A DNA stretch of 37,233 bases from a virus: the UHGV virus genome UHGV-1356101. The stretch is one strand, 5' to 3'. A model generated the notes under the pieces. The model had not been told where the DNA came from, ran no database searches, and worked only from the letters and a program-made list of their open reading frames with translations. Position 1 is the stretch's first letter. Each line of letters begins with the position of its first letter. Shown here one piece after another: positions 1 through 16,205 of this stretch. A program made the position numbers and the translations under genes.

Positions 1-294
1 ATCTGCAATCAAAGCCATCTGTTTTACGCCACCAAGCGTTGTTTTATTCGCCGCTGGAAGAGTGTATTTATTTGCCTGTGCTGCAATGCCATCTAATTTC
101 GTTTTGTCCTCTTTAGACATCAAACCATCTTTAGATCCGGCAACTGCATTAACGAGTTTTCCCTCGATCTCGCTGATTTTTCCGTCCTGCTGTATATTTT
201 TTGTATCATTTGCAGATACGCCGTTCTCAATGTTGTCCATTGCTGCTTCTGTAATTACTTCTCCGTCTTCCCAGTCTTTCTTTGTATATGCCAT
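1..294 (-). CDS. Small virion protein with a tail/head-fibre-like repeat motif (GLMSKEDKTKLDGI ... LPAANKTTLGGVK); N-terminal 98 codons. ATG at 294..292; runs off the left edge.
   Basis: Manual translation of the minus strand gives MAYTKKDWEDGEVITEAAMDN...GGVKQMALIAD with no stop up to position 1. RBS GGAGGT lies upstream (rc of 297..302). Position 1 is a codon boundary. The likely continuation is 37233..37144. Confidence 0.5.
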   Translation of the reverse strand, partial: MAYTKKDWEDGEVITEAAMDNIENGVSANDTKNIQQDGKISEIEGKLVNAVAGSKDGLMSKEDKTKLDGIAAQANKYTLPAANKTTLGGVKQMALIAD

Positions 295-306
295 AACTCA
301 TACCTC

Positions 307-392
307 CTATTTTGTTTTACCTACTTTTGCCTTTCCGACTTTCCCTCTGCCAACTAAGGCTACATCGTCAGAGGGAATTATTCCCCCGGTGT
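307..392 (-). promoter_or_regulatory. Putative -1 recoding element at the 3' end of the major capsid gene. G5 run at 383..387, stop codon in a hairpin loop, and a -1 frame ORF encoding ...GGIIPSDDVALVGRGKVGKAKVGKTK*.
   Basis: About 75 nt are roughly 80% identical to 35210..35298 at the 3' end of the major tail protein gene. The -1 frame ORF is in the supplied track (307..489). Substitutions between the two copies are mostly synonymous in the -1 frame. Confidence 0.5.
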
Positions 393-1556
393 GTATGTAA
401 TGTAGAATCCAGCGTCTGCATTCGTTTTCTTCACATCGTATCTTACAACTCCGGCAAGTAATTTTCCGTAAATCTGGTTGTCTACCCATTCAACGCTTGC
501 CTGCTTGCGGTCAAAAAATGTACAGAATGATTTTGCGTCACCAACAAAGCCTTTCAGTTCTCCAGCTTCTGCGATCATATCATCGTCCAGAACAACTACC
601 TCTTTGCCAGACAGTACTTTCCCACTTGCGGAAGTGATGGAATCTTGCAGTAGATATCTTCCGTTTTTGTCTTTCAGCTTGTCCAGCTCTGCGTAAAGGG
701 AAGAGGAAATGATGAATTTTACAGGATATACTTTTTTGATTTCTTTGTTTACCAAATCTTTCAGTCCGTCAAGACCTGTAACGCTTTTCGCTGTAGCGCT
801 CTTTAATACTGTTGCGATATCAGCATTTCTTGTGTTTCTTGACTGATCGTTGATTTCATCGCAGATCAGACCTGTTACATCATAGTCAGCGTCATCAATA
901 GCCTCCTGAGAAATCGGAATATATCCTCTTCTTGTTTCGATGCTATAGTCGATATTTGAGATTTTTGGTTTGGAAAGCTCTGGGTTCTGTTCCAGTTCTG
1001 CAACAGTAGACATTTTACTTCCAGATTTCGCAATTACTGGATATTTTCCAGATGAACTGTTTACGCTTACATTATTCACGTAATTTCCCAGATCCACTAC
1101 ATCTTCCGGCTTTTTCTGAACAGCCAGCATTTCTACCGGGATCAGGATCCCTGCATCTACTTCTTTAAAGCCCCCTTCTCTCACCTGCCCTTTTGATTTT
1201 ACAAATGAGTTAATCGCACTTCTCGTTTCTTCAATTTCTTCTTCATTTCTTCTACCCATGTCTTTTTTCTTCTCCCTTCTTTCCGGTGTTTTTTCATACT
1301 CCTTCATCTGCTCACGGAGTTCTGATAATTCGGTTTCCAATTTGCTTTTTCTCTCATTATGAGCATCATTCTCCTCAGTAAACTTTGTGATAGCATCGTC
1401 TACCAAAGAGCGATCTTCTTCGGTATTTGCTTCATTGATTGATTCTTCCAGTTCCTTTTCTCTTGTCTCAAAATCTGCGTCTTTTCCACGCATTTCTTCC
1501 AGTTCCTTTTCTTTGTCTGCGATCTGTTTCGCAAGCATTAACTGTCTTAAAGCCAT
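378..1556 (-). CDS. Major capsid protein, HK97 family, with an N-terminal coiled-coil delta/scaffold-like domain.
   Basis: 392 aa. It has a charged coiled-coil N-terminus followed by the HK97 fold region, and sits immediately after the prohead protease with a start/stop overlap. Confidence 0.9.
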   Translation of the reverse strand: MALRQLMLAKQIADKEKELEEMRGKDADFETREKELEESINEANTEEDRSLVDDAITKFTEENDAHNERKSKLETELSELREQMKEYEKTPERREKKKDMGRRNEEEIEETRSAINSFVKSKGQVREGGFKEVDAGILIPVEMLAVQKKPEDVVDLGNYVNNVSVNSSSGKYPVIAKSGSKMSTVAELEQNPELSKPKISNIDYSIETRRGYIPISQEAIDDADYDVTGLICDEINDQSRNTRNADIATVLKSATAKSVTGLDGLKDLVNKEIKKVYPVKFIISSSLYAELDKLKDKNGRYLLQDSITSASGKVLSGKEVVVLDDDMIAEAGELKGFVGDAKSFCTFFDRKQASVEWVDNQIYGKLLAGVVRYDVKKTNADAGFYITYTPGE

Positions 1557-2137
1557 TATTTTTCTCCTTTCAATCTCTTCGTGGCATTACTTCGCCACTG
1601 CACCAACTGTTTCTCCCGATACTGTTCCACCTGTGCATGTCTCGCCTGTACGCCCGTATCTTCATAAGCCGGGAATGTGCATACAGACACTTCGTGCAGA
1701 TCAACTTCTCGTATTGTCCATTTCACAGTGCCGTCATCTCTCCAATCGGTTTCTTCCCGAACTATATTGAATCCAAACGAGCACTGATCCACATCTCCAC
1801 GTCTCACCCTCTCATACAGGTTCATTGCGTCTGAATCATTTTCATTGATATCAATTTCGCCCCATAGACCTCTTGTATCGGTTCTCAGGCGTAAAGTTCC
1901 AACTTTTGTCCGTCCAAGTACAAGTGTGTCATCATGGTTTGTCAGAGCGCGGATGTCGTTGCTCATGGTATTTACAAACGCTTCTGGTGCGATTTCTTCG
2001 TAAGCTCCCGGCCACAACTCTGTTTCGGAATTAAAAACAGCAAAATAACCGGAAATTGTTTTTTTTCCGTCTTCCGCTTCTCTTGTTTCAAACTCCGCTT
2101 TCCACGATCTGGTTAAGTTTTCTTTTTTTCGCTCCAC
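1556..2137 (-). CDS. Prohead protease, HK97 family (S78/U35-like).
   Basis: 193 aa between the portal and capsid genes. Sequence is typical of phage prohead serine proteases. Confidence 0.85.
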   Translation of the reverse strand: MERKKENLTRSWKAEFETREAEDGKKTISGYFAVFNSETELWPGAYEEIAPEAFVNTMSNDIRALTNHDDTLVLGRTKVGTLRLRTDTRGLWGEIDINENDSDAMNLYERVRRGDVDQCSFGFNIVREETDWRDDGTVKWTIREVDLHEVSVCTFPAYEDTGVQARHAQVEQYREKQLVQWRSNATKRLKGEK

Positions 2138-3321
2138 TATTCATCACCTCCCCCGTTTAATTTCTTCTGCTCCCCGATCATGCCTTGCGGTATAAAGTTT
2201 TCGAGGATAATCAGATCATTCAATCCGTCCTTCGGAGAATCACCAATCAGATTCAGTACATCATTCCCTGTGTAGATCCCTCGGATATATAGGTTCATGC
2301 CGATTTCTGCAAGCTCTTTGGTGTCATAAGCCATCAAACTCTTTGAGTTGCATTTAAAGTACCAATGCGGGCTCTGAATCAAACCTTTCGTAAGTGTCTG
2401 TTGGAATACGTCCGCAATCGACTTCACTCGCGTACGGACAAAGTTGTTGTATTCATCCTTGTTAAAACTTCCGACCCCAAGAAAAAAAGGCGGCACATCC
2501 AACAGGGATGCTACCGTCCTCTTATCAATCTCGACCGATTCATTGATTGCGATATCCTTAAGGGATAGTGGTTTTACCTCTGATACTTCTAAAAACTCTG
2601 CTGGTATGATCCACGGCTCACCCGGTTTCGATTCTTTCAAATATTTTTCTTTAATTTGCTTTCTTCCGGCTTCATTTGCGAAATCTTCCGACATTGCATC
2701 TACCTTAACAATGACGTTTGGCATGTATTGACCGCTCATAAAAGATTTCTTAGTCGCATTCGCTTGTTTCAAGTTCGATGCAATATCTTTCAGAGCCAAC
2801 CTGTACCCGGTTCCCTTCCACGGATATTCCGGGTTCGGGTTGATTGCAAAGTGCAGCACTTCGCTTGGATCATATTCTTTGCTGCCGTAAATGATCTTAT
2901 ATCCCGTCAGCGTCTCTTCAAAACTTGTCATGGACGGCTTTAATGGAATTAATTCATCAATATAACCATCCCTCATCACCGGGAGCACAACTGCGTTCCC
3001 GTCACCCGGTAATAGCATCGAGTAAACAATGTTGTAAACCCACGCTTTTCTTGTCATCAGCGAATACGGATTAATGTCAATCTTTCGTGATAGCTCATTC
3101 TTAATCCGGATGTCTCCATGCGGACCATTCTCCATTAAATGGATTGTCATGCCAGAAACCAAATCGGCAATTTTCTGACACGCTGCCCGAATTTCAGGGT
3201 TCTGCGCCAGCGTTGTGTATCCTGACGGAAATAAAAAATCAGAGAACGTAGCTCCCTGATACACAAATACTTTATTCTGTGGTTCTGATCTAATACTCTT
3301 CTGCTTCTTTTTCTTTGCCAT
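2137..3321 (-). CDS. Portal protein, HK97 family.
   Basis: 394 aa, located after TerL and before the protease. Confidence 0.9.
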
Positions 3322-3330
3322 TTTAGCCTC

Positions 3331-3549
3331 CTATCCTTCGTCTTCTGCAAAAATCAGTCTCCCGTTTTCAGCTCTTCCAAGGCAAGTACATTTTCTGTCA
3401 ATAAAATCATCCTTATTTTTAGCGTGAGATATATCAGTCGTATGTTTGCAATTTCCACTACATTTCTCGCATCTTTTCCCATCACATAAATAAAGGATTT
3501 CGCATTCTGCTTTCACGCCCATTCTTTCTCCTACTCTCTCTTTAACCAT
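3331..3549 (-). CDS. Small Cys-rich hypothetical protein (CxxC x2, zinc-binding-like).
   Basis: 72 aa ORF between TerL and portal. It overlaps the TerL start by 19 nt. Confidence 0.3.
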   Translation of the reverse strand: MVKERVGERMGVKAECEILYLCDGKRCEKCSGNCKHTTDISHAKNKDDFIDRKCTCLGRAENGRLIFAEDEG

Positions 3550-5315
3550 TTATTTGCTGCATTTCCAAGTGCCATGTCAGTCAACATCTGGCAACACGAA
3601 AATACCCCTGCATCAAACAAGTCAATTCGTCTTACGCCGCCGTCTCCGTCTACCTTTTCGTACTGGATCATGTCATCCACTTTTTCAATCGCCCGTACAT
3701 TCTGTACGCAGTACTCAAAAGCATCCGAATGCAGGTAATAGAATTTCTTATTCTTTACTTTTACCTCAATATGTCGGAATCCCTCGGATTTTACATAGAA
3801 GTACTGTGGCTGATCTTGAATTTTAAATCCTGCTTTTTTCATTTTCAGGAAAAATTCACGTCCAAACTTCTTGTCGAATCCAACAATTTTGATTTTGAAT
3901 CCCATCTTTTTCATGGAGATAAACCAGTTCACAATGTCATCGGGAAGCACCGTAGCTGTATTACTCATCGTCAGCCATCCATCCTCTTCCCAACCAAACA
4001 GTGGGATACCATCTTCATCCGCTTTTTTAATTGCTGCTGCCCTTGGGAAGAAAGCGTGTGTAATACAGATATCCACGTCTTTATATGTTCCATAAATTGC
4101 ACCTGCAGTTAAATCGTGAAGTTTTGACAAATCAGCGCCGCCGTACCATGTGATTGGGAGCTTCGCCAGCTCTTCCAATGTCCAGCTATATTCATCATCG
4201 GATGATCTAAACTCGTTAATGTCAAAGTATGCATTCAGAGCATTTGTAAAGATATTCAGAGTTTTATTCAGGTACTCCGCCCTTAACTGCGGTTCATTCA
4301 TTGCCTGTGCTGCATCATCCAGCAACTCATCTACTGTAACAGTAACTCCAATTGACGGCGTACACATCTGTAGCACTTCCGGATCATCCAAAGTTGTAAT
4401 CTCGCCTTTGCTGTTTAAAACATTTCCTTCTTTATCCTGGTCTGCTTTGCAAATAAAAATAAAATAGGAATCATACGCTTTGTCTGTGATTGTTCCATTC
4501 AAAACGTCATGAAGAGTCTTAATCCTATTCGCAAGGAATCCGTCCGGAATGTCTCCAGCAGTAGATATACCAATCAACAATTTGTTTCGATATGCTTTCA
4601 TGGCGTTTTTCATCAATATATATTTTTTAGCCCCAGCTCTTTTCCAAGAATGCAGCTCGTCCAGAATCAGACAGTTACAGTTTAAAGAGTCTAATTTATC
4701 TTCCTGGTTGGCGATCGCATACATTTCAGCGGTACCGTCTCCGAAATCAATAGTGATGGAATGTTCTTGATTATTGTCTCGGATTCTAAGTTTATTAACA
4801 TCTCCGCGCAAGGTTTCAACGTTGTCCACTAAAAATCCAAAACTTTCCATGGTCTGCTTTACAGAGTTCGCAACGATGTATGTCTTCGCACCAGATCCTC
4901 TGTCCAGAATGCTTTTCGCCTCAGCAAGCGCAGCACTAAAGGATGTTTTCCCCTGTTTTCTTGGTAAAAAAATAAGCGCTTCGTTAAAACGCCTAATGTC
5001 TGTGCCTTTCCGGAAGAATCCAAACAAATTTACACATACAAACTTCTGCCAGTCCGTCAATAACATTGGAGTGCCTTTAAAACTGACTCCATTCTTATCC
5101 TCGCCCTGTACGTGGTGTACGGTTCCCTCAATCAAATCAATCACAAAATCGAATTGGTCACTACGGAAATCTAAATCATCACGTTCTAAGTCTGTCAGAA
5201 ACCTCTTACACGCAAGTACTCTGTCTATGTTTACTAATACTTTTTTACTTACGATATCCTCCGCATAGCGAACAGCCGTATCGAAATGCGGACTGTTAAT
5301 ACGGGATAAGTCCAT
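3531..5315 (-). CDS. terL: Terminase large subunit.
   Basis: 594 aa with a Walker A-like LPRKQGKTS motif and a nuclease C-terminal domain. It follows TerS. Confidence 0.9.
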   Translation of the reverse strand: MDLSRINSPHFDTAVRYAEDIVSKKVLVNIDRVLACKRFLTDLERDDLDFRSDQFDFVIDLIEGTVHHVQGEDKNGVSFKGTPMLLTDWQKFVCVNLFGFFRKGTDIRRFNEALIFLPRKQGKTSFSAALAEAKSILDRGSGAKTYIVANSVKQTMESFGFLVDNVETLRGDVNKLRIRDNNQEHSITIDFGDGTAEMYAIANQEDKLDSLNCNCLILDELHSWKRAGAKKYILMKNAMKAYRNKLLIGISTAGDIPDGFLANRIKTLHDVLNGTITDKAYDSYFIFICKADQDKEGNVLNSKGEITTLDDPEVLQMCTPSIGVTVTVDELLDDAAQAMNEPQLRAEYLNKTLNIFTNALNAYFDINEFRSSDDEYSWTLEELAKLPITWYGGADLSKLHDLTAGAIYGTYKDVDICITHAFFPRAAAIKKADEDGIPLFGWEEDGWLTMSNTATVLPDDIVNWFISMKKMGFKIKIVGFDKKFGREFFLKMKKAGFKIQDQPQYFYVKSEGFRHIEVKVKNKKFYYLHSDAFEYCVQNVRAIEKVDDMIQYEKVDGDGGVRRIDLFDAGVFSCCQMLTDMALGNAANKWLKRE

Positions 5316-5678
5316 TTACTTCCCCTGCTGTTTTTCCAGTAATAATGCAAATGCAGATTTCTCTTTTTTCGGCTGTTCAATCTCCGCATTGTACGTTTTC
5401 GCATTCAACATCAGTCTGTCAGAATACGTTCCGATGTCTTTCCGTAGATTTTCGAGACTCACGAGAATAGGGCTTTTTTTACCCCCGCTTTTCTCCGTGT
5501 CCAAAATCACTTCGTATCCAGACTCTTCAAATTGTTTGCTCAGCACATTGTACTGGTAAATCATATCTGCATAGATCTCAATCACCTGTTTATACTGCAC
5601 TTTGTAGGTTCCGAGCTCTTTCATGTATTTGACTGTTCTGTCGATGATTGTTTGCCTTTGCGGTATGTATCTTGCCAT
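5316..5678 (-). CDS. terS: Terminase small subunit (P27-like).
   Basis: 120 aa, immediately upstream of and abutting TerL. Sequence resembles the P27-family TerS. Confidence 0.65.
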   Translation of the reverse strand: MARYIPQRQTIIDRTVKYMKELGTYKVQYKQVIEIYADMIYQYNVLSKQFEESGYEVILDTEKSGGKKSPILVSLENLRKDIGTYSDRLMLNAKTYNAEIEQPKKEKSAFALLLEKQQGK

Positions 5679-5769
5679 CTATTCTCACCTCCTTATCTGC
5701 CGGAAAATTTATTTTCAGAATCCCGCGCCATTGGAAAGAGTCCTCTCTCCCGATTCTCCTGAGACATTT

Positions 5770-6057
5770 TTAATTCTCAAAAGGGAGGGGGGATACCTTG
5801 ATCTCGCTCAACTTCAAGCTTATTCCTTCTTTTTCTTTCATCAATTCCGATGTATAAATCGCAGATTCTTTTCTTTTCGTAACGATTTTTATAAAAATCT
5901 CTCCAAGTGGGGTTGATGTCACACTCCATTTATCATTAGCACCAACACCGATATCGACACACTTCTTTACTGCATCCCCCAATATCTCAGTTACTTCCGA
6001 GACGCTTCTATCTACTCGTCCACTCCACTCAAGTTCGTACATCTTGATTTCTTCCAT
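5770..6057 (-). CDS. Hypothetical protein.
   Basis: 95 aa ORF between HNH and TerS. Confidence 0.35.
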   Translation of the reverse strand: MEEIKMYELEWSGRVDRSVSEVTEILGDAVKKCVDIGVGANDKWSVTSTPLGEIFIKIVTKRKESAIYTSELMKEKEGISLKLSEIKVSPLPFEN

Positions 6058-6341
6058 GCTTCAAACTCCCTTCTTCTTTTCCTCTGCCAGTACAATCCAG
6101 CAGCTGTGACCTTACCTGTCTTCCTGTCGTGCATCCGATCATGTTGCGCAGTGGACATGCCGATAAGATTCCAGTCCACAAGTGCAAGCTCTGGATACTC
6201 TTCCAGAGGATAGATATGGTGTACTGTCGTAGCTTCCGCATACTTGCCGTATCTCTTAGACTCTTGACATTGATAGTTATCACGCCTTAATATGTTTTCT
6301 CTTTTCTTTTTCCACTTTCGGCTTTCGTAAAACTTTCCCAT
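6012..6341 (-). CDS. HNH endonuclease, packaging-associated.
   Basis: Carries the CQESKRYG...HHIYP...N...H HNH motif. It sits directly upstream of terS/terL, as in cos-type HK97-like phages. Confidence 0.85.
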   Translation of the reverse strand: MGKFYESRKWKKKRENILRRDNYQCQESKRYGKYAEATTVHHIYPLEEYPELALVDWNLIGMSTAQHDRMHDRKTGKVTAAGLYWQRKRRREFEAWKKSRCTNLSGVDE

Positions 6342-6348
6342 GCTTCCT

Positions 6349-6489
6349 CCCTTTGATCAGTTTTCCACAGTCTTTGCATCTCCATGTGTGCTCTGTGATA
6401 AAGCTGCCATCATTCTGCCTTGCAAGATCTGTACTGACATATTCTGTCTTACTATGCTTGCACAATATTTTTTTTTAATAACTCCCATG
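6349..6489 (-). CDS. Possible small ORF (46 aa) with a strong RBS. It is an alternative to the TTG-initiated track ORF 6280..6465.
   Basis: ATG at 6489..6487 is preceded by AAGGAG at 7-nt spacing. The protein is low-complexity. Confidence 0.2.
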
Positions 6490-6646
6490 CTTTTACTCCT
6501 TTGTAACATAATAAAAGCACCCATCTCTGGATGCTAAGAATTTAGGACTACTGCTGAAAGAATTAATAACGCCAACAAAAACCAAAATAACCAAATACAC
6601 AATCAAAATTTATAAGAAAAAGGAGGAACCTTGCAGTAGTCCACAA

Positions 6647-6719
6647 CGGGTATAGTAGGACTCGAACCTACGACAAATCGGTTAACAGCCGATCGCTCTA
6701 CCAACTGAGCTATACACCC
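6647..6719 (-). tRNA. tRNA-Asn (anticodon GTT), 73 nt, no encoded CCA.
   Basis: Manual cloverleaf: acceptor GGGTGTA/TATACCC, D arm GCTC-AGTTGGTA-GAGC, anticodon stem ATCGG/CCGAT with loop CTGTTAA, T arm GTAGG-TTCGAGT-CCTAC. Confidence 0.85.
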
Positions 6720-6918
6720 GTAGGATGCCTTTTACTGACATCCTTTACCCTATCCGCACTCGGGTACGCTGATTACACTAAATATAGATTGCTGAATCTA
6801 TTTTTGTTTGTTTTGCAGATCTGCGGATACCTGCGTTTTGGTACCATTTGCAATGTAAGTCCGGTGTGCACTCCCAGAACAGACCTCAGCTGTGCAGCCT
6901 GCATACTCACATCACAAA

Positions 6919-6989
6919 GCGGAGCACTTGGAATCGAACCAAGGACACAGGGCGCGACCCTGCGCATCTACCATTGATGCTATACTCCG
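6919..6989 (-). tRNA. Noncanonical tRNA-like gene (71 nt). Acceptor, D and T arms are canonical but the anticodon arm is aberrant. Anticodon is CGC if read as a 7-nt loop (GTCGCGC), but then position 26 is missing and the variable loop is only 3 nt; otherwise the loop is 5 nt (TCGCG).
   Basis: Acceptor CGGAGTA/TGCTCCG with discriminator C, D arm GCAT-CAATGGTAG-ATGC, T arm CTTGG-TTCGATT-CCAAG. No G3:U70 pair. Confidence 0.4.
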
Positions 6990-6995
6990 CATGAA

Positions 6996-7034
6996 AACAC
7001 CGCCAGACGAGAAAGGGTAAAGTCCGGCGGTGTT
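6996..7034 (-). terminator. Rho-independent-like hairpin (13-bp GC-rich stem, one mismatch) followed by TTTT, immediately upstream of the tRNA-like gene on the minus strand.
   Basis: Minus strand reads AACACCGCCGGAC-loop-GTCTGGCGGTGTT followed by TTCAT. Confidence 0.4.
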
Positions 7035-7104
7035 CCGAATGTTGTTTGGAAAGCTTTTGGAGTCTTTCTTCTAACTCCATGTTATACTATATATTATTTA
7101 AAGC

Positions 7105-7128
7105 GGACAATGTGGACAAAACGGACAA
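7105..7128. repeat. Three GGACAA direct repeats at 9-bp spacing, just 3' of the late activator gene.
   Basis: GGACAATGT GGACAAAAC GGACAAAC at 7105..7130. Confidence 0.5.
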
Positions 7129-7132
7129 ACTT

Positions 7133-7549
7133 CTATTTTTCTTTCATCCACCTCTGAAATTCTTTCCTTGCGCTTTCTCCTGTGCAATTCCCTTTCATCT
7201 TCGCAGCCACTTCATCCCATGTCAGTCCTTGCATCACCTTGAACCGGATAATCCGCTGCATCCTTACCGGAGCTTTATTGATTACTCGCTCCGCTTTTAC
7301 TTTGATCTGCTTTGCATTTCTTTTTCGTTCTTCCAGCAACCGTTCCTCTTCGTCTATGTTCACCGTGTTCTCTACACATCCATAGATATTAAAACTCTGC
7401 GGTTGGTACGGGAACTCTGGATTGCTGCCTGTCACCTTGTCCTGCACAAACGTCTTTCTTCTGTGCCGTCTGATATCTTCCTCTGTCTCTTTCACAAGTG
7501 CTTTCGCATCCATGTACTCATAGATTATATTCTTATCCACCTCAATCAC
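7133..7549 (-). CDS. Putative late-gene transcriptional activator (ArpU/RinA-like, sigma-70 region-4-type C-terminal HTH).
   Basis: 138 aa. The C-terminal ...RMQRIIRFKVMQGLTWDEVAAKM...ARKEFQRW resembles sigma region 4. It is the last early gene before the tRNAs and the packaging operon. Confidence 0.5.
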   Translation of the reverse strand: MIEVDKNIIYEYMDAKALVKETEEDIRRHRRKTFVQDKVTGSNPEFPYQPQSFNIYGCVENTVNIDEEERLLEERKRNAKQIKVKAERVINKAPVRMQRIIRFKVMQGLTWDEVAAKMKGNCTGESARKEFQRWMKEK

Positions 7550-7766
7550 CTCCCGGAATTGGCTTTTTGATGTTGTACTTGCTTGCTATGTATCCTATGG
7601 TGTCCGTATTTGTTCTGTCAGCCCTTTTAAAATCACAGGCAAAGGCTTTATGCCCCTGTTGCTTTAAAGCTGTCTCGCAGGGCTTTTTCGTTGCCATATC
7701 ATGTGCATCTATCTTTCGGATGACTCCTGCCGTCTCCTTTCTGCGCTTCATAGTCTCTCTTGTCAT
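7542..7766 (-). CDS. Hypothetical protein.
   Basis: 74 aa ORF in the minus-strand gene train. Confidence 0.3.
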   Translation of the reverse strand: MTRETMKRRKETAGVIRKIDAHDMATKKPCETALKQQGHKAFACDFKRADRTNTDTIGYIASKYNIKKPIPGGD

Positions 7767-8359
7767 TCCTGCATCACCTCAATTTTCTCTCCGGTCAGCT
7801 CTTCCAACTTCTTCCGCATTTCTTCCACAGTCATTTTCTTCGATTCGGTGCGTTCCCAAATGAGTTCAAGATTGTGGTCTTCCATGATACTGCTAATTTT
7901 TCCCATGCATTTAATCTTATATACTCTAACTATTTCCAAATCGCTTACCACACTTTTTAAGTTTTCGTTATAGTCTCCCAAATCCGCATATCCATCTTCG
8001 CCAGTCAAAAAGCCGCCTATAACAAGTCTTTTCCTGAAATAGTTATCATTATATTCGACCACCATTCCGTCTTTTAAATCCGCCTTTGTAAATTCTTTCT
8101 GCATGTAATCACTCCATTCTAAGATTTCATACCCATTGCTTTTATAGTACTGATACGGCGAAAACTCTCCTTTGATATAACATATTTCTTCTTCGCAGAA
8201 TTCGTAATTTGTCTCTTTCAGGTAGCTTTCGCCTGAACACCACTTCATTCCTTGCTTATGCATTCTTTCGCAAAAGTCTTTCGCTTCCTCTTCTGTCTTG
8301 CAGTGCACTGCAATCTTATTGTCTTTATTTTTAAATTCATTCCAATTAAATTTTTTCAT
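7763..8359 (-). CDS. Hypothetical protein.
   Basis: 198 aa ORF. Confidence 0.4.
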   Translation of the reverse strand: MKKFNWNEFKNKDNKIAVHCKTEEEAKDFCERMHKQGMKWCSGESYLKETNYEFCEEEICYIKGEFSPYQYYKSNGYEILEWSDYMQKEFTKADLKDGMVVEYNDNYFRKRLVIGGFLTGEDGYADLGDYNENLKSVVSDLEIVRVYKIKCMGKISSIMEDHNLELIWERTESKKMTVEEMRKKLEELTGEKIEVMQE

Positions 8360-8365
8360 ATTTTC

Positions 8366-8557
8366 TTACCTCACTATCTTCCGCACAATCCAATCTAAAA
8401 AAATCACAAACAACAGTATCGGGAAGCGTGCCGCTGCTAAATAATCCTCACACTCCAACTCCACATCTTCTTCCAATCCTGCCTTTAAAGTAATCACTGT
8501 TCCAAGCCCCAGGATGTAATACAGGGCTAGGAATGCGATTGTAATTAAAATGTCCAT
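8366..8557 (-). CDS. Small membrane protein. Start revised to 8557 (MDILITIAFLALYY...).
   Basis: An AGGAGG RBS sits 6 nt before the ATG at 8557..8555, and the ATG overlaps the upstream stop codon. Two hydrophobic segments. Confidence 0.45.
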   Translation of the reverse strand: MDILITIAFLALYYILGLGTVITLKAGLEEDVELECEDYLAAARFPILLFVIFLDWIVRKIVR

Positions 8558-8558
8558 G

Positions 8559-9134
8559 TTATTCCTCCTTGTATGGTTCTGGTAGTGGCATTTTATTGCA
8601 ATTGCTTTGTTTATTTTTATATTGTTCACTCATAGTAATCCAGGTGCAATTTTCAGGACAGTAATCTCCATTCACGTCTATTCTTTCGATTGTCAAATCT
8701 TCACTATATCCATTTTTCAAAGCCCACTCAAAAAAATTTTGTTTATTTTTCAACCACTCATCACATACTTTTATTCCTCTTCCGCCATAAGCATTGTAAT
8801 GGTCTGACTTTGTATAATAGCATCGTCCACACATTCCTTTATAAATCCTATAAAGTCTTGTACCAGTCATGCCGTGTGTTATATTTGATTCAGACATCTT
8901 TGATAGTGTCTGTTGGTTCAAACATCCACAAGAATGTCTTGTCTTTCTTTTCAAAACGTCAGTTGTTCTGTAAACATGATTACCGCAATCACATTCACAT
9001 TCCCATTTTGCATATCTGTTTTTAGAAATACCAACTTGTTTTATCGCTTTAAGCATATCGAACTTCATGCCTGTTAGATCTTTTACTTTTCCCATCGTTA
9101 TTCCTTTCTCATAGGTTCTGGTAGTGGCTGCCAT
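8559..9134 (-). CDS. Putative DNA-binding protein with zinc-ribbon motifs, a conserved YRIYKGMCGRCYY...YGGRGIKVCDEW motif, and a degenerate HNH_3-like segment (ERIDVNGDYCPENCTW). The C-terminus ends MPLPEPYKEE.
   Basis: Motif recognition only. The catalytic His of HNH_3 is absent. Confidence 0.4.
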   Translation of the reverse strand: MAATTRTYEKGITMGKVKDLTGMKFDMLKAIKQVGISKNRYAKWECECDCGNHVYRTTDVLKRKTRHSCGCLNQQTLSKMSESNITHGMTGTRLYRIYKGMCGRCYYTKSDHYNAYGGRGIKVCDEWLKNKQNFFEWALKNGYSEDLTIERIDVNGDYCPENCTWITMSEQYKNKQSNCNKMPLPEPYKEE

Positions 9135-9583
9135 GCTACAACCTTTTCATACCCCAATTCATCATTTGTTTTAAACACCGTATCAACGAATCCTAAACTT
9201 GTCGAATCGTAAATATCATGCCAAAATCCAAATCCATATTCACTATCATACTGGCAGAACATCGGCAAATCCTCTTCGTGATTTTCGACAATACACATAT
9301 AGAATCTCATATCATCATCTTCTGGCAATCTATCTTCTACTGAAATCCAGTCTTTATCTTTCTTCCCGTCTTCATATCCGATCTGATACAACTTTTTTCT
9401 GCTGCATTCTCCGCACTTCGGAACATCGTCCATGTGAGAACGGATGATTTTTCTTGCAATATACCATGCAGTAAAACTATCTATCGCAAAATGATGAATG
9501 CCTGCTGAATCTTCTATGTCGTCTATGTTTTCGTCAAATGCTTCTTTTATCTCTTCCAAGATCTTCTCTAGTACGTTCTCCAT
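9098..9583 (-). CDS. Phage protein with a DUF551-like C-terminus (...VVAWQPLPEPMRKE).
   Basis: 161 aa. The C-terminal WxPLPEP motif is typical of DUF551. Confidence 0.45.
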   Translation of the reverse strand: MENVLEKILEEIKEAFDENIDDIEDSAGIHHFAIDSFTAWYIARKIIRSHMDDVPKCGECSRKKLYQIGYEDGKKDKDWISVEDRLPEDDDMRFYMCIVENHEEDLPMFCQYDSEYGFGFWHDIYDSTSLGFVDTVFKTNDELGYEKVVAWQPLPEPMRKE

Positions 9584-9595
9584 TATTCCACTCTC

Positions 9596-9919
9596 CTAAA
9601 ATCCTATATCATCTAAGAAAAAACCAATTTCTTCTTCAAATTCTTCTTTTTCAATACCATAATCTTCAAGCATTTCTTCTAATGGAAATACTTCAGACAG
9701 TTTTTTCATTAAGTATTCTGCTATTCCCTCTGTATCATATTCTTCGACAATAGTATCTTTCTGTAAAGGTTGAATCATTCCATCTTTTAAATGATGTGCA
9801 AATTCGTCAGCTCCAATAATTATTTTATTCCCTTTTGGAATAATTACTTTTTCTCCAAACATCTTCTCTACTTCTATATCACAATTTGATGTTAGGATTT
9901 GACCTATTTTGTATTTCAT
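9596..9919 (-). CDS. Hypothetical acidic protein.
   Basis: 107 aa ORF. Confidence 0.35.
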   Translation of the reverse strand: MKYKIGQILTSNCDIEVEKMFGEKVIIPKGNKIIIGADEFAHHLKDGMIQPLQKDTIVEEYDTEGIAEYLMKKLSEVFPLEEMLEDYGIEKEEFEEEIGFFLDDIGF

Positions 9920-10146
9920 TTATTCCATCTCCTATTCCATGCTTCGATTGCATTTATTTTGCAAGTATTAATACTATTTAGTGCGTTGTCTGCATTTTGC
10001 ATACTAGGACAATATCCTTCTGCTTTTGCATAACATTTTTTGCATTCACACCAAATAGTCCAACCAACATTATTTTTTCTTTCCATTTTTATTCTTGCTT
10101 CTCCACCACAAAACGGGCATTTCTTTAATTCTTCCATGTTACTCAC
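9916..10146 (-). CDS. lar: Lar-family restriction alleviation protein.
   Basis: 76 aa. The CPFCGGEA...VWCECKKCYAKA...AIEAWNRR pattern is typical of the Lar family. Confidence 0.65.
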   Translation of the reverse strand: MSNMEELKKCPFCGGEARIKMERKNNVGWTIWCECKKCYAKAEGYCPSMQNADNALNSINTCKINAIEAWNRRWNK

Positions 10147-10456
10147 TCCAATCTAATCTCTGGCCACAATGATTGCAGCAATCAGAATCCCAATAACAAA
10201 ACATTTCTATATCTGCCATATTTCCAAACAGTCTTTTGCATCTAGGACACGACGCTTGTCCATTCCAGTTTTCTACTTTTTTCGGCAACTGCTTTTCTAG
10301 TGCTTCGATTGCTGTGCAATAAACTTCAATATCACTTTCCAAATAACTGTTATCTTGTTTCTGGAAAAATGCTTTATTGTGCCTTATCATTTCTCTTTTC
10401 GCATTAATCCCAACTTGAAGCCTTCCTATTGCTTCTCTAACTTTCTTCTCATCCAT
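10139..10456 (-). CDS. Zinc-ribbon small protein (C-terminal CPRC...CCNHC).
   Basis: 105 aa, overlapping its neighbours by a few nt (operon-like). Confidence 0.4.
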   Translation of the reverse strand: MDEKKVREAIGRLQVGINAKREMIRHNKAFFQKQDNSYLESDIEVYCTAIEALEKQLPKKVENWNGQASCPRCKRLFGNMADIEMFCYWDSDCCNHCGQRLDWSE

Positions 10457-10631
10457 CTAATTTTCCTCCCGTTATTTCCAACCATAAACCACTCTCTCCA
10501 TCTTTTTCGTAGAGAAAATCTGTCTCTATCCCGCAGACCGCCAATTCGGTCATTGTCCTCACGCAATCCTCTGCATCAGCGCATTTGATCGTGTCGCCTT
10601 TTCGCAAGCGCGTTTCTTCTGTTTTTGGCAT
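10449..10631 (-). CDS. Hypothetical small protein.
   Basis: 60 aa. Confidence 0.3.
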   Translation of the reverse strand: MPKTEETRLRKGDTIKCADAEDCVRTMTELAVCGIETDFLYEKDGESGLWLEITGGKLDG

Positions 10632-11014
10632 TAGTCATTCCTCCGTATCGTCATCTCGATTCCAATCTCATCTTTAATCATCCTCGTATATTCGTCCCAT
10701 GTTGCCATATCATCCACCAGACACTCTGCTTTCAGGTTCATCCGGTCGATAAATCTCTTGCACCGTTTCCCGGCAAAGCCGAACTCATCATGCAGCGTTG
10801 CAACTGCGATCACCATCATTGTGTCCAGTGTCATGTTTTTGATTTTCTCACAGGCAATGTTTAGTTCTTTTCTGGTTAATGCTGTATTTATTCCTGTGAT
10901 ATTCCGGAACTGGATTTCTTTTTCCAGTCCATCGATACCGTCTTTTTTTACAATCTCCCTTGCTAGAATCAATCCCTGTGATCTGCCAGCTGTATAATCA
11001 TCAACTTTTCCCAT
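10631..11014 (-). CDS. Hypothetical protein.
   Basis: 127 aa. Confidence 0.4.
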   Translation of the reverse strand: MGKVDDYTAGRSQGLILAREIVKKDGIDGLEKEIQFRNITGINTALTRKELNIACEKIKNMTLDTMMVIAVATLHDEFGFAGKRCKRFIDRMNLKAECLVDDMATWDEYTRMIKDEIGIEMTIRRND

Positions 11015-11258
11015 TTTTTCTCCTTAACTGCTTGCAAAGACCTTCCCACTCAGCCTCTTTGTTCCGCGTCCATCTTTTCGCTGCTCTTCTTTTCCGGATC
11101 CCGTTTTCATCCATGTACCGGATAAGATCATCTCTGGTAAATTCCGATCTCTGGATGTCATTCAAGACTTTATGGATATGCTCATCCGTGCATCCGAGTT
11201 TTACCATCTCTTCGATTTGGAACTGGTACGGATCCAGAAAGTGTGCTGGTCTACTCAT
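11001..11258 (-). CDS. Hypothetical basic protein, possibly DNA-binding.
   Basis: 85 aa. Confidence 0.35.
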   Translation of the reverse strand: MSRPAHFLDPYQFQIEEMVKLGCTDEHIHKVLNDIQRSEFTRDDLIRYMDENGIRKRRAAKRWTRNKEAEWEGLCKQLRRKNGKS

Positions 11259-11333
11259 TTTCCTTTCACCTTCTTCTTTCTCTTACTCTTTGTTCCGACA
11301 AATATATTTTTCGCTTTCCTCTCATAACTTCTC

Positions 11334-12065
11334 CTAACTAAAGCTTGCTTCCGGCTCTTCCTCTGGACATATTTCTCCATCTGCTTCCATTTCGTTTATG
11401 ATGATTTTCGTTCCCGCTCTTTGTAATCTCAGCAACAGCATGTCAAATTCATCAAGGTATCTCAACGACTTAATGTCTACACATCCCAAACTGTCAAGTG
11501 TATACTCTTTCTCAAAATCCCATTTCGATATCGGAATTTCCATATTCAATCCTTCATCGTGTTCGTTTTCGAAAATGATTACCGCCCTATGCAAGGAGCC
11601 CCAAGTAGGTCTTTCACGCTCTTCTATTAGCATCTCGCAACTGACCGATTCGTAGTATGGTCCATCGTCAAACTCCACTTCCAGACCAGTTGTACTGATC
11701 TTCTTTTCGCACATTGCAATCCATGCATCAAACAGATCAGTGACTTTCATTTCTTTTTCTTCCTGCTTGATTGATAATTCCTTAAAATTTTCCAGAATCT
11801 TTTTATTCTCGATACAAGCATCGGAATTTACGATTTCTGTAAGCACCGTATCCAACTTTGGAAGGTATTCCGAAAAATCATACTTCTCTATGTACGGCAC
11901 CATAACTTCGTCTATTTTTTTCTTCAGTGCACTTTCTACTTTTCCCCATCTAAACGCTGATTCTATTGCCGATTCTATCGATTCCTTGAATTTATTTCTG
12001 AGGATTTCCTTTACTTCTTCCTCGGAAAGGCACTCCTGTGCCATTTTAAATAATTCTTCTTTCAT
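11334..12065 (-). CDS. Hypothetical acidic protein downstream of the replisome organizer, in the position usually occupied by a helicase loader.
   Basis: 243 aa, no Walker A motif. Confidence 0.45.
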   Translation of the reverse strand: MKEELFKMAQECLSEEEVKEILRNKFKESIESAIESAFRWGKVESALKKKIDEVMVPYIEKYDFSEYLPKLDTVLTEIVNSDACIENKKILENFKELSIKQEEKEMKVTDLFDAWIAMCEKKISTTGLEVEFDDGPYYESVSCEMLIEERERPTWGSLHRAVIIFENEHDEGLNMEIPISKWDFEKEYTLDSLGCVDIKSLRYLDEFDMLLLRLQRAGTKIIINEMEADGEICPEEEPEASFS

Positions 12066-12076
12066 TTTGCTCCTCC

Positions 12077-12898
12077 TTAATTTGACTTCAACAGCTGTTC
12101 TTCCAGAGAGTCCATGTCGTATCCTCTGCGATCAAAGTTGTTATTATTTCTATGTGTCGGCTCTGATCTAACTGGCATTCTTCCCTTATCCTGTTCTTTG
12201 GATAGCCAGGAATTTATAAATCTTGCGATTCCTCTCTTTGTTTTTCTTCTCGCTTTATTGCTGTCTAGCCAAGATTTCATTTTTCTGAGTTCCTGCATCA
12301 CATCAACAGCAGGGAATAATTCACTCCACTCTGATACATTGTCTTCGTAAATCCAATGCTCTGTACCGTCATTCAACGATAGTGAGATGACTTTTTTCCG
12401 GTCTGGAGCTTCCGGCTCCGGACAAGTAGTATTTATACTACTCTTATCTATACTATCCTTACCTAACCTAACCTGGGTTTCCAGAGTGTCCACCGCTTGG
12501 TTGCCTCTTGGTTGACATGCGGTTGACAACTGGTTGACAGATGGTTGACAAGTGGGCGAAAGAACGTATTTTCCGTTCAAATTTTCCAATTTATTCAGTT
12601 CATCCAAACATCTTGTCTGTGTGTATCTATCTTTCCTGATCGAATTGTTTGTTTTCCAGTCAGAAATCACGATAACGCCACTTTCAAATGGAATGATAAA
12701 CCCTTTTGCGACCAGTATTTTCAAATCATCTTCCGCTGCTCCAACCATTCTCACGATTTGCTTCGGAGACGATACAAAGCCGTCATCATCAGCTTTCATG
12801 CCGAATTGTAAGTACAGAGCTTGAGTTGATGACGGCATTTCAACAAACTTATCTGTGCATACAACATCTGCCGAAAACATTCTTCTGTTCGCCATCAC
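12077..12898 (-). CDS. Phage replisome organizer / DnaD-like replication initiator. The N-terminal organizer domain is present, and the iteron origin lies inside the gene.
   Basis: N-terminus MMANRRMFSADVVCTDKFVEMPSSTQALYLQFGMKADDDGF matches the replisome-organizer N domain. An internal STACQP peptide repeat corresponds to the DNA iterons. Confidence 0.7.
   Translation of the reverse strand: MMANRRMFSADVVCTDKFVEMPSSTQALYLQFGMKADDDGFVSSPKQIVRMVGAAEDDLKILVAKGFIIPFESGVIVISDWKTNNSIRKDRYTQTRCLDELNKLENLNGKYVLSPTCQPSVNQLSTACQPRGNQAVDTLETQVRLGKDSIDKSSINTTCPEPEAPDRKKVISLSLNDGTEHWIYEDNVSEWSELFPAVDVMQELRKMKSWLDSNKARRKTKRGIARFINSWLSKEQDKGRMPVRSEPTHRNNNNFDRRGYDMDSLEEQLLKSN
12495..12554. repeat. Iterons: four GGTTGACA repeats plus one degenerate copy at 11-12-bp period, flanked by an A/T-rich stretch and an ACCTAACCTAACCT element (12421..12478). 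Putative ori inside the initiator gene.
   Basis: TTGGTTGCCTC TTGGTTGACATGC GGTTGACAAC TGGTTGACAGA TGGTTGACAAG. Confidence 0.6.
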
Positions 12899-13305
12899 TC
12901 ATCCTCCGCAATATAGACCACCACGCAAGGCGTGTCCGAATATGCCTTTTCAATTTCCAGACCGGTCACCTGCTTATCATCGGTGTATGCGACTCCGTTC
13001 AGTCCATCCAGAATGATTTTTGCGATATTATCCAAGTCCGGCTTCTTATTCGGCTTTATTTCGCCTTTTAATGCTTTTTCCTTATTCTTCTTAGACCAGC
13101 TCTCTGGAATCGGAAATTTCGCTAAAATTCGAACTCTCAGAGGGATGTCCGTGTAAAGCACGCCTATACTCTGCTTGTAAATCCTTGCAACTTCCTTTTC
13201 GTACTTTTTATTTTCTGGTGGCGTATATGTAATGACTTTAAATCCGGCTCTGCTGAATCTCGGTCTTGCTTTTCCAACCGGTTTGCCCGGAATTGTAATT
13301 ACCAT
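12895..13305 (-). CDS. rusA: Holliday junction resolvase RusA.
   Basis: 136 aa with GKPVGKARPRF...PDLDNIAKIILDGLNGVAYTDDKQV. Confidence 0.9.
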   Translation of the reverse strand: MVITIPGKPVGKARPRFSRAGFKVITYTPPENKKYEKEVARIYKQSIGVLYTDIPLRVRILAKFPIPESWSKKNKEKALKGEIKPNKKPDLDNIAKIILDGLNGVAYTDDKQVTGLEIEKAYSDTPCVVVYIAEDE

Positions 13306-13418
13306 TTATTCTCCTTTCTGCTCCCGGAATTACCGGGAGACAATGAATCTGGCTTACTTAAGGTATTTGTGACGTACTACACAGCAGCCATGAACGGGTT
13401 ACAATTTATAGCAAAGGT

Positions 13419-13778
13419 TTAACCCTTACTAACATAGTGAAATTCTTGCCGGAACTGTTCTTCTGTTCCGTAGTGCTGCAAATAATACTCCTTGCAGCGT
13501 TTTCTTAAGTATCGGTCAACTTTCGATGCATTCTCCCCTGCCCTTGTTCCGTTTGGATGCAGATCCGGTCTCAGTGGAGCAATAAATCCGTAATCTTCCG
13601 AAAGTTCAATTTCTCTCGATGTGTGGCTAAAAATATGATGACGCTCCACTCCGTAAACTCCTGTGTACATGCAGTGATCCATATCTTCTGTAAATATGCT
13701 CCACAGCTTCTTTGGTCTGCCGGATGCTCTTTGATGACCCTTTTTCTTTTTCTTTCGCTTCGGCTTGGGAAATGCCAT
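13419..13778 (-). CDS. NinG-like / HNH-like basic protein (Lys/Arg-rich N-terminus, ERHH motif).
   Basis: 119 aa between NinB-like and RusA. Similarity is weak; the call rests on position and motifs. Confidence 0.3.
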   Translation of the reverse strand: MAFPKPKRKKKKKGHQRASGRPKKLWSIFTEDMDHCMYTGVYGVERHHIFSHTSREIELSEDYGFIAPLRPDLHPNGTRAGENASKVDRYLRKRCKEYYLQHYGTEEQFRQEFHYVSKG

Positions 13779-13795
13779 GTCACTGTAATCAATGC

Positions 13796-14891: not shown

Positions 14892-14899
14892 GCTTACAC

Positions 14900-16201: not shown

Positions 16202-16205
16202 ATCG

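What the first reader, a model, noticed from the sequence alone, without database searches (positions are those of the whole stretch)
1..294. Window ends join in-frame, indicating a complete circular (excised or virion-permuted) phage genome
A minus-strand ORF starts at 294 (RBS GGAGGT) and is open through position 1, which is a codon boundary. A minus-strand frame entering at 37233, also a codon boundary, is open for 29 codons to the TAA at 37146..37144. Joined, they give a 127-aa protein with a fibre-like GLMSKEDKTKLDGI motif, sitting between the capsid gene and the gp6-like connector. Consistent with this, the integrase and attP candidate are internal, with the endolysin on one side and cI/ltp on the other, which is the non-integrated arrangement. 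No host-like genes flank the phage.
Basis: seen in the sequence. Interest (0 to 1): 0.6.

Follow-up and report, generated by a model that had tools for sequence, protein, structure and literature searches.

The report
Complete circular gut phage genome
The two ends of this 37-kb sequence are neighbours on a circle, so it is one complete copy of a temperate phage closely related to known Ruminococcus gnavus phages; this is a bookkeeping feature of the assembly, not new biology.

Summary
On the minus strand, 294..1 (98 codons) and 37233..37144 (29 codons plus TAA) join in frame into a 127-aa protein. An open frame alone is weak evidence (chance about 0.37); homology settles it. The joined protein matches 127-aa proteins at up to 96% identity with no gap at the join. 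It completes the Pfam head-fibre profile to its last position. Twenty-six fetched loci cross the join in one ungapped alignment. These include a 37,234-nt contig (Logan SRR9161587_23) that is 100% identical but cut at window 5741.

The window is one full turn of a temperate siphophage. It shares 74% of its positions with Ruminococcus gnavus phage phiRg519T2 and has the same gene order all the way round. It is in the excised form: the 19-nt core AAATCTTAAGATTGCTTAA (22848..22866) lies between the integrase and the endolysin. The same core occurs at prophage-host junctions and in four empty bacterial sites.

"Virion-permuted" is the less likely option, because an HNH-terS-terL-portal-protease-capsid module points to packaging with fixed cohesive ends. 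The break inside the head-fibre gene is arbitrary.

Ordinary: a new member of a known phage group. Low interest.

The parts
1..294 (-). 5' part of the head-fibre gene (codons 1-98; ATG at 294..292)
   Evidence: Translation. Alone it matches Pfam PF11133 at 58.1 bits, profile positions 194-249 only.
37144..37233 (-). 3' part of the head-fibre gene (codons 99-127 plus TAA at 37146..37144)
   Evidence: Translation. Joined to 1..294 it extends the PF11133 match to profile position 277/277 at 69.9 bits. Homologues are colinear across the join.
302..307 (-). Ribosome-binding site GGAGGT, 7 nt upstream of the head-fibre ATG
   Evidence: Read directly from the sequence.
378..1556 (-). Major capsid protein (HK97 fold family)
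   Evidence: phrog_10 at 2e-56 and PF05065 at 81 bits. In other contigs the identical protein sits next to a head-fibre gene and then the connector.
36851..37138 (-). Head-tail connector (gp6-like), 95 aa
   Evidence: phrog_2550 at 3e-24. PF05135 scores 17.2 bits, below its cut-off. The equivalent gene gp7 of phiRg519T2 is annotated as head-tail connector.
21560..22714 (+). Tyrosine integrase, 384 aa (ATG at 21560)
   Evidence: PF00589 at 31.2 bits against a cut-off of 27.1. Start codon chosen. The identical protein lies at the edge of prophages in long contigs and chromosomes.
22848..22866 (.). attP core AAATCTTAAGATTGCTTAA (possibly also the T at 22847)
   Evidence: Integrase-side prophage junctions lose homology to the window after 22866. 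Endolysin-side junctions L041 and L046 keep homology down to the core. The rebuilt attB is present in four empty sites.
22997..23800 (-). Endolysin (N-acetylmuramoyl-L-alanine amidase)
   Evidence: PF01520 at 77 bits.
20799..21395 (+). Ltp-type surface lipoprotein (a gene slot that varies between relatives, next to the integrase)
   Evidence: PF07553 at 170 bits. Relatives carry other genes in this position.
20128..20490 (+). cI-like HTH repressor
   Evidence: PF01381 at 54.7 bits.
6012..6341 (-). HNH endonuclease of the packaging module
   Evidence: phrog_119 at 1.9e-23. PDB 5h0m, an HNH endonuclease, at 1e-6.
5679..5769 (-). Conserved non-coding block upstream of terS; candidate cos region (inferred)
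   Evidence: Near-invariant in 15 distinct relatives, even where the neighbouring ORF has diverged. Logan contig SRR9161587_23 ends at window 5741, inside this block.
5316..5678 (-). Small terminase (Terminase_4 / P27 family)
   Evidence: phrog_361 at 1.8e-29 and PF05119 at 40.5 bits.
3531..5315 (-). Large terminase
   Evidence: phrog_9 at 8e-116, plus PF03354 and PF20441. 66% identical to the terminase of Lactococcus phage bIL285.

Best explanation
The window is one complete turn of the circular map of a temperate siphophage of Ruminococcus (Mediterraneibacter) gnavus. The assembler or database cut it open at an arbitrary point inside the small head-fibre gene, so position 37233 is physically followed by position 1. 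The DNA is in the excised (attP) configuration: the integrase arm and the endolysin arm are joined at a 19-nt core. In lysogens that same core flanks the prophage.

Shown here: the join is contiguous, the genome is complete, and attP, attL, attR and attB are related as expected.

Inferred: the phage packages unit-length DNA from concatemers at a fixed cos site just upstream of terS, using an HK97-like HNH + TerS + TerL machine. The circular assembly would then come from annealed or ligated cohesive ends, from concatemers, or from the replicative circle, not from circular permutation. I put this sub-claim at about 0.65.
For: The join rebuilds a real gene.
- The 127-aa product matches 127-aa proteins at 86-96% identity over 100% of its length, with no gap at the join.
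- PF11133 is completed to its final position only when the two parts are joined.
- A profile of the family aligns across the join to solved head-fibre proteins of phi29 (3qc7, 6qvk) and of another phage (7qof, deposited as 'head fiber dimer/trimer protein').

Other DNA crosses the join.
- 26 fetched loci give a single ungapped alignment across it. Three are 100% identical over the 600-nt test sequence and come from three different runs (L001, L004, L006).
- An IMG/VR contig carries the exact 50-nt junction.
- The same circle exists cut elsewhere. Logan SRR9161587_23 is 37,234 nt, and 29,978 nt of it were read. Those are 100% identical to the window at a constant offset, run through 37233|1, and end at window 5741.

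Completeness.
- The window is colinear around the whole circle with phiRg519T2 (36,865 bp, deposited as circular): 78.5% aligns and 74% of positions are identical.
- Isolated relatives are 36.5-37.8 kb (PMC10072058).

Excised state.
- The core is identical in attP, attR (L020, L026), attL (L041, L046) and four empty attB sites whose two flanks match the attL and attR host flanks at 95-100%.
- Short contigs from four other runs also span endolysin-attP-integrase at 100% identity.
- The experimentally determined attP core of phiRgPS6 is a related sequence (PMC10072058).

Cos inference.
- An HNH endonuclease lies upstream of terS, followed by Terminase_4 terS, TerL, portal, S78 protease and an HK97-family capsid.
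- In HK97 the HNH protein GP74 promotes cos cleavage (PMC9410871).
- The intergenic block upstream of terS is conserved.
Against: No reads were available, so neither physical circularity nor the virion ends were observed directly.

The source of the window is unknown. If it comes from run SRR9161587, the Logan contig is a second assembly of the same reads and not independent data. The other crossing contigs and the isolated phages are independent.

The first 7,256 nt of the Logan record could not be fetched. Its length differs from the window's by 1 nt.

The cos inference rests on gene content only. TerL has no detectable sequence match to any solved terminase, HK97 included. The R. gnavus phage paper says nothing about genome ends.

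The host is inferred from isolated relatives and not from an identified genome: both scans of reference genomes for attB or attR found nothing.
Confidence: 0.88

Rival explanations
1. The genome is complete, as above, but the phage packages by the headful mechanism. Virion DNA would then be terminally redundant and circularly permuted, and that is why it assembles as a circle.
For: Circular assemblies are typical of permuted genomes. The ends carry no terminal repeat, and nothing here measures the DNA ends. A mosaic relative with the same replication genes carries a different packaging module with a Terminase_6N large terminase (L064).
Against: This window carries an HNH endonuclease next to a Terminase_4 terS and its TerL, followed by portal, S78 protease and an HK97-type capsid. 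That arrangement is associated with cos packaging (PMC9410871). There is a strongly conserved non-coding block where a cos site would lie. More distant TerL relatives (about 25-27% identity) are Paenibacillus larvae and Staphylococcus aureus siphophages. From memory, these groups include cos packagers; their packaging type was not checked here.
Confidence: 0.1
2. The circle is an assembly artefact. Two related, co-resident mosaic phages share the head-fibre and connector region, and the assembler closed a path through that shared repeat, producing a chimeric or falsely circular contig.
For: The family is highly mosaic and abundant. Two related prophages can sit about 40 kb apart on one scaffold (L039/L040 and L042/L043). 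A recombination boundary lies only about 66 nt from the window start.
Against: The map is a single, non-redundant turn, colinear with an isolated phage of nearly the same size. A contig cut elsewhere is 100% identical over the 29,978 nt read. Contigs from other runs are 100% identical across the join (L001, L004) and across attP. No gene is duplicated or missing.
Confidence: 0.03
3. The window is a piece of an integrated prophage, and the in-frame fit of its ends is coincidence.
For: An open 29-codon frame has a chance probability of about 0.37.
Against: attP is intact and internal, and there are no host genes. Integrated relatives switch to host DNA at 22848..22866, not at the window ends. 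Homology across the join is at E = 2e-68.
Confidence: 0.01

Closest known systems
Ruminococcus phage phiRg519T2 (MT980838.1) and its relatives phiRgPS_6, phiRg507T2_2, phiRg507T2_3 and phiRM10, isolated on R. gnavus ATCC 29149 (Buttimer et al. 2023, PMC10072058)
   Same: Same gene order all the way round the circle and similar size (36.5-37.8 kb against 37.2 kb). A 3-kb query spanning the join matches phiRg519T2 at 97.5% over capsid, head fibre and connector. Same tyrosine integrase next to the endolysin. Two tRNA genes (Ala, Asn) in the same position. attP in the same intergenic position, with a related core.
   Different: Only 78.5% of the window aligns to phiRg519T2, and 74% of positions are identical. 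That suggests genus-level, not species-level, relatedness. The differences are: head fibre 127 aa against 118 aa with a different N-terminal part; one 1632-aa tail fibre against two genes; Ltp in place of gp22; a different replication and late-early gene set; and a different attP core from the one determined for phiRgPS6 (tcttaagcatttttaagattt).
Phi29 head fibre gp8.5 (Pfam PF11133; PDB 3qc7, 6qvk) and the head-fibre proteins deposited under PDB 7qof
   Same: The C-terminal module, roughly YTLPAAxxxTLGGVKQ...LkxxGIM, aligns at E = 3.8e-9 to 2.7e-6. The Pfam score of 69.9 bits is well above the 24.6 cut-off. The gene sits directly after the capsid gene.
   Different: It is only 127 aa and matches only profile positions 197-277 of 277. 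The N-terminal and stalk parts of gp8.5 have no counterpart here. Whether the protein decorates the capsid was not tested.
HK97-type cos packaging module (HNH gp74, TerS, TerL, portal, protease, capsid)
   Same: Same set and order of gene families: HNH endonuclease, small terminase, large terminase, portal, S78 prohead protease, HK97-family capsid.
   Different: No detectable sequence similarity between this TerL and any solved terminase. A 95-aa ORF of unknown function sits between the HNH gene and terS. The cohesive ends are not determined.

Membership tests
Complete, circularly closed phage genome assembly | Joining the ends restores an intact gene that has full-length homologues | tested here: met
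   127-aa product; 127-aa homologues at 86-96% identity over 100% of the length, with no gap at residues 98|99. The Pfam profile is completed to position 277/277.
Complete, circularly closed phage genome assembly | Other sequences cross the junction without insertion or deletion | tested here: met
   26 loci give a single ungapped alignment across 37233|1. L001, L004 and L006 are 100% identical over 600 nt. An IMG/VR contig holds the exact 50-mer.
Complete, circularly closed phage genome assembly | A differently linearised copy of the same length exists | tested here: met
   Logan SRR9161587_23 is 37,234 nt. The 29,978 nt read are 100% identical at a constant offset of 5,740, and the contig ends at window 5741. 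The remaining 7,256 nt could not be fetched.
Complete, circularly closed phage genome assembly | One non-redundant turn containing all essential modules, colinear with isolated relatives | tested here: met
   Colinear with phiRg519T2 around the whole circle. Packaging, head, tail, lysis, lysogeny and replication modules are all present.
Complete, circularly closed phage genome assembly | Reads or read pairs span the junction at even coverage | not testable with these tools
   No read data are available.
R. gnavus temperate siphophages (phiRg group, PMC10072058) | Genus-level nucleotide similarity to an isolated member | tested here: met
   74% of window positions are identical to phiRg519T2 and 78.5% align. 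From memory, the usual genus threshold is about 70%.
R. gnavus temperate siphophages (phiRg group, PMC10072058) | Shared tyrosine integrase and attP between integrase and endolysin | tested here: met
   The integrase-endolysin region is 96.3% identical to phiRg519T2. The attP core is mapped. A related core was shown experimentally for phiRgPS6.
R. gnavus temperate siphophages (phiRg group, PMC10072058) | Host is R. gnavus | tested here: inconclusive
   The host is inferred from the isolated relatives. Contigs carrying attB are unnamed human-gut metagenome contigs. Reference-genome scans for attB and attR found nothing.
Phage_head_fibr (PF11133, phi29 gp8.5-like) | Score above the Pfam gathering threshold | tested here: met
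   69.9 bits against 24.6.
Phage_head_fibr (PF11133, phi29 gp8.5-like) | Full gp8.5 architecture (N-terminal base and stalk as well as the C-terminal part) | tested here: not met
   Only profile positions 197-277 are matched, and the protein is 127 aa. It shares the C-terminal module only.
Phage_head_fibr (PF11133, phi29 gp8.5-like) | The protein is attached to the capsid surface | not testable with these tools
   Needs virion proteomics or cryo-EM.
HK97-like cos packaging | HNH endonuclease gene next to the terminase genes | tested here: met
   6012..6341 (-): phrog_119 at 1.9e-23 and PDB 5h0m at 1e-6. It lies 334 nt upstream of the terS start, with one ORF in between.
HK97-like cos packaging | TerL related to terminases with known cos packaging | tested here: inconclusive
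   No hit to any solved terminase. The closest named relatives are bIL285 and streptococcal prophages at 57-66% identity, whose packaging mode I could not document.
HK97-like cos packaging | Fixed cohesive ends on virion DNA | not testable with these tools
   Needs reads or virion DNA.
Tyrosine-integrase site-specific integration (attP x attB) | An identical core in attP, attL, attR and attB, with the flanks exchanged as expected | tested here: met
Tyrosine-integrase site-specific integration (attP x attB) | Both ends of a single prophage carrying this integrase and this core | not tested
   The attL and attR examples come from different contigs. No single contig holding both ends was fetched.

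The most novel reading that the evidence does not exclude
The conserved non-coding block at 5679..5769, where one assembly of this genome ends (window 5741), is the physical cos site of the R. gnavus phiRg phage group, whose genome ends have not been described. Separately, the small head-fibre gene split by the window ends is a swappable cassette. It is 48-133 aa long in relatives with the same capsid, has a recombination boundary about 66 nt into the window, and some versions carry collagen-like repeats. It could tune how the capsid sticks to mucus in the niche of a mucin-degrading host.
Probability: 0.3. Interest if true: 0.3.

Novelty: new member of a known kind. Interest (0 to 1): 0.1.

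Why it matters
In practice this means three things. The window can be treated as a complete genome. The head-fibre gene should be annotated across the coordinate origin and not reported as two truncated ORFs. The genome should be rotated to start upstream of terS, as the isolated relatives are.

It adds an uncultured, genus-level relative to the R. gnavus phage group. It also gives that relative a precisely mapped attP and attB pair. The integration site lies between a glycosyltransferase gene and a response-regulator gene and differs from the core published for phiRgPS6.

No new mechanism is involved.

Tried and rejected
- Four look-ups failed to return the first 7.2 kb of Logan contig SRR9161587_23, so its other end was not read. 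A fifth used the wrong start codon.
- The rebuilt attB, and a pattern covering both attB and attR, found nothing in the reference-genome collection. The host species therefore could not be named from a genome record.
- The exact attP 43-mer is absent from IMG/VR, so the window itself is not in that collection.
- A full-text search for the run accession found no paper, so I could not establish whether the sample was a virus-particle preparation.
- TerL against solved structures gave no hit. A literature search for the cohesive ends of bIL285 found nothing.
- The 173-aa plus-strand ORF that also crosses the join (37112..400) has no family match and a Ser/Phe/Cys-rich composition. I rejected it as an antisense shadow of the head-fibre gene.
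- ORF continuity alone was rejected as evidence, because its chance probability is about 0.37.
- Structure prediction of the head fibre was not run, because the sequence-level matches to solved head fibres were already sufficient.

Full report
**1. The observation**

On the minus strand an ATG at 294..292 is preceded by GGAGGT (302..307) with a 7-nt spacer. The frame stays open for 98 codons to position 1, which is a codon boundary. The minus-strand frame that enters at 37233 is open for 29 codons to the TAA at 37146..37144. Joined, they give a 127-aa protein containing GLMSKEDKTKLDGI. The two ends share no overlap of 8 nt or more.

An open frame across the join is weak evidence by itself: 37% of random 29-codon stretches on this gene-dense strand have no stop.

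**2. Is the join real?**

Homology says yes, in four ways.

- The joined protein finds more than 1,000 homologues. The best two dozen are almost all exactly 127 aa, 86-96% identical over 100% of the query (E down to 2e-68). In the alignment the residues on either side of the join (MALIAD|LSTET) are conserved with no gap.
- Pfam PF11133 (head fibre protein) scores 69.9 bits, with the match running from residue 47 to 125 and ending at the last profile position, 277/277. The first 98 residues alone score 58.1 bits and stop at profile position 249. The 29-residue tail alone is undetectable. So the tail supplied by the other end of the window is the missing end of the domain, in the right register.
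- A profile of the family aligns across the join to solved head-fibre proteins: 7qof (deposited as head fiber dimer and trimer proteins, E = 3.8e-9) and phi29 gp8.5 (3qc7 at 8e-7; 6qvk at 2.7e-6).
- At the DNA level, a 600-nt test sequence (the last 300 nt plus the first 300 nt) gives a single ungapped alignment across the join in 26 fetched loci. These include metagenome contigs from several studies, two IMG/VR contigs and an isolated phage. Three loci from three different runs are 100% identical over all 600 nt (L001, L004, L006). An IMG/VR contig contains the exact 50-nt junction.

**3. The same circle, cut elsewhere**

Logan contig SRR9161587_23 is 37,234 nt, against 37,233 nt for the window. 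Two stretches of it were fetched, together 29,978 nt. Both are 100.000% identical to the window at a constant offset (record position = window position − 5,740). One stretch runs from window 5741 down through 1 and on through 37233 to 27611. So that contig crosses the window's ends, and the window crosses that contig's end at 5741.

I could not fetch the first 7,256 nt of the record, and the 1-nt difference in length is unexplained. If the window comes from the same run, this is a second assembly of the same reads and not independent data. The evidence in section 2 is independent.

**4. What the genome is**

Nearly all genes are on the minus strand. In transcription order they are:

| Gene | Coordinates |
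|---|---|
| HNH endonuclease | 6012..6341 |
| 95-aa ORF | 5770..6057 |
| terS | 5316..5678 |
| terL | 3531..5315 |
| portal | 2137..3321 |
| S78 prohead protease | 1556..2137 |
| HK97-family capsid | 378..1556 |
| head fibre | 294..1 + 37233..37144 |
| connector and neck proteins | 35863..37138 |
| major tail protein | 35281..35850 |
| tape measure | 30927..34586 |
| distal tail protein (Dit) | 29468..30949 |
| 1632-aa tail fibre with collagen repeats | 24570..29468 |
| holin | 23952..24200 |
| amidase endolysin | 22997..23800 |

On the plus strand lie the integrase (21560..22714), Ltp (20799..21395) and a cI-like repressor (20128..20490). Back on the minus strand come a cro-like gene, Rha and AntA antirepressors, a recombination module (Gam-like; the neighbouring genes correspond to phiRg519T2 genes annotated Rad52-type, NinB, NinG) with RusA, a DnaD-like helicase loader, small ORFs, a RinA-like activator and two tRNA genes (Asn, Ala).

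A 3-kb query spanning the join hits five phages isolated on R. gnavus ATCC 29149. The best is phiRg519T2 (MT980838.1; 36,865 bp, deposited as circular) at 97.5%. Its gp5 capsid, gp6 'head fiber protein' and gp7 connector lie under the match. The whole window is colinear with phiRg519T2 around the circle: 78.5% aligns and 74% of positions are identical. The paper describing these phages reports siphoviruses of 36.5-37.8 kb with a shared tyrosine integrase, and notes that head- and tail-fibre proteins are not conserved among them (PMC10072058).

The window is therefore one complete, non-redundant genome of a genus-level relative.

**5. Excised or integrated?**

The identical 384-aa integrase is found in hundreds of contig sets, including two chromosome-sized records. 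There it is always followed by bacterial genes. In ten such loci, homology to the window stops at 22866-22869. On the other side, two prophage ends (L041, L046) keep homology from the endolysin down to the same 19 nt and then switch to bacterial DNA.

The core AAATCTTAAGATTGCTTAA (22848..22866) is thus shared by attP, attL and attR. The predicted empty site (left host flank + core + right host flank) occurs exactly in four human-gut metagenome contigs. In those, the two host flanks (glycosyltransferase side and response-regulator side) are directly adjacent. The window carries the phage-phage junction, so it is the excised form.

Short contigs from four other runs of the same accession series span endolysin-attP-integrase at 100% identity. 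The attP core determined experimentally for phiRgPS6 (tcttaagcatttttaagattt) is a related sequence.

One caveat: my attL and attR examples come from different contigs.

**6. Permuted or cos?**

This cannot be settled without reads, but gene content favours cos. An HNH endonuclease (phrog_119 at 1.9e-23; PDB 5h0m at 1e-6) lies just upstream of a Terminase_4 terS and its TerL. Portal, S78 protease and an HK97-type capsid follow. This is the HK97 arrangement, in which the HNH protein promotes cos cleavage (PMC9410871).

The 91-nt gap between the 95-aa ORF and terS contains a block that is almost invariant in 15 distinct relatives, even where the neighbouring ORF has diverged. The Logan contig ends inside it, at 5741. 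I treat this as a candidate cos site and not as a finding.

Against over-reading it: TerL has no detectable match to any solved terminase, and the packaging mode of its closest named relatives (bIL285 at 66%, streptococcal prophages at 57-60%) could not be documented.

**7. Rivals**

- Headful packaging with circular permutation remains possible (about 0.1).
- False circularisation through a shared mosaic segment is unlikely (about 0.03). The map is a single turn colinear with an isolate, and contigs from other runs are identical across both the join and attP.
- A prophage fragment with a chance in-frame fit is excluded.

**8. Verdict**

The feature is an ordinary consequence of writing a circular genome as a line, and the break falls inside a small head-fibre gene. 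The phage is a new, uncultured member of a described group. Interest is low. The only mildly new items are the mapped attP/attB pair, the candidate cos block, and the cassette-like variability of the head-fibre gene.

Noticed in passing
window 5679..5769 (minus strand), contig end at 5741: The non-coding block ATCCCCCCTCCCTTTTGAGAATTAAAAATGTCTCAGGAGAATCGGGAGAGAGGACTCTTTCCAAT upstream of terS is almost invariant in 15 distinct relatives, even where the adjacent ORF has diverged. One assembly of this genome (Logan SRR9161587_23) ends inside it. It is a candidate cos site.
   Followed up: partly
window 1..294 and 37144..37233; boundary near window 66: The head-fibre gene is mosaic. 20 of the 26 alignments that cross the join stop at about window 66, so the C-terminal ~50 residues are shared while the N-terminal part is swapped. 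Relatives, many with the same capsid protein, carry versions of 48-133 aa, some with collagen-like repeats.
   Followed up: partly
L020-L028, L023 and L029, downstream of the integrase: The identical integrase protein sits next to three different bacterial flanks, with slightly different sequences in the second half of the core (…CTTAAGATTGCTTAAG…, …CTTAAGATTATTTAAA…, …CTTAAGAATCTTTAAG…). This suggests either several integration sites or host strain differences.
   Followed up: no
window 20799..21395 (+): The slot between the repressor and the integrase holds an Ltp-type lipoprotein here. Relatives with the same integrase carry DUF4429/SHOCT, an RNase_T-type exonuclease, DUF5067 or other genes there, so it is a variable accessory-gene slot.
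   Followed up: no
L064 (GCA_037374585.1, JAXYMD010000016.1): The same recombination and replication genes as the window are joined to a different packaging and head module (GP3_package, Terminase_6N, Phage_min_cap2, scaffold) and to a serine recombinase in place of the tyrosine integrase. This is large-scale module exchange.
   Followed up: no
L039/L040 (one 311-kb scaffold) and L042/L043 (one 338-kb scaffold): Two related prophages with the identical holin lie about 40-45 kb apart on the same bacterial scaffold. One is next to LrgA/LrgB and the other next to a serine recombinase. This is polylysogeny by relatives, which is a risk for chimeric assemblies.
   Followed up: no
window 3331..3522 (-): A 63-aa ORF between terL and portal is present in the window and in some relatives, but absent in others that have otherwise identical neighbours (for example L002, L010, L057).
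   Followed up: no
window 6646..6720 and 6918..6990 (-): tRNA-Asn(GTT) and tRNA-Ala(CGC) lie between the RinA-like activator and the HNH gene, in the same position as in phiRg519T2.
   Followed up: no
window 37112..37233 + 1..400 (+): A 173-aa ORF antisense to the head-fibre gene also crosses the join. It has a Ser/Phe/Cys-rich composition and no Pfam match. It is most likely a shadow ORF.
   Followed up: yes
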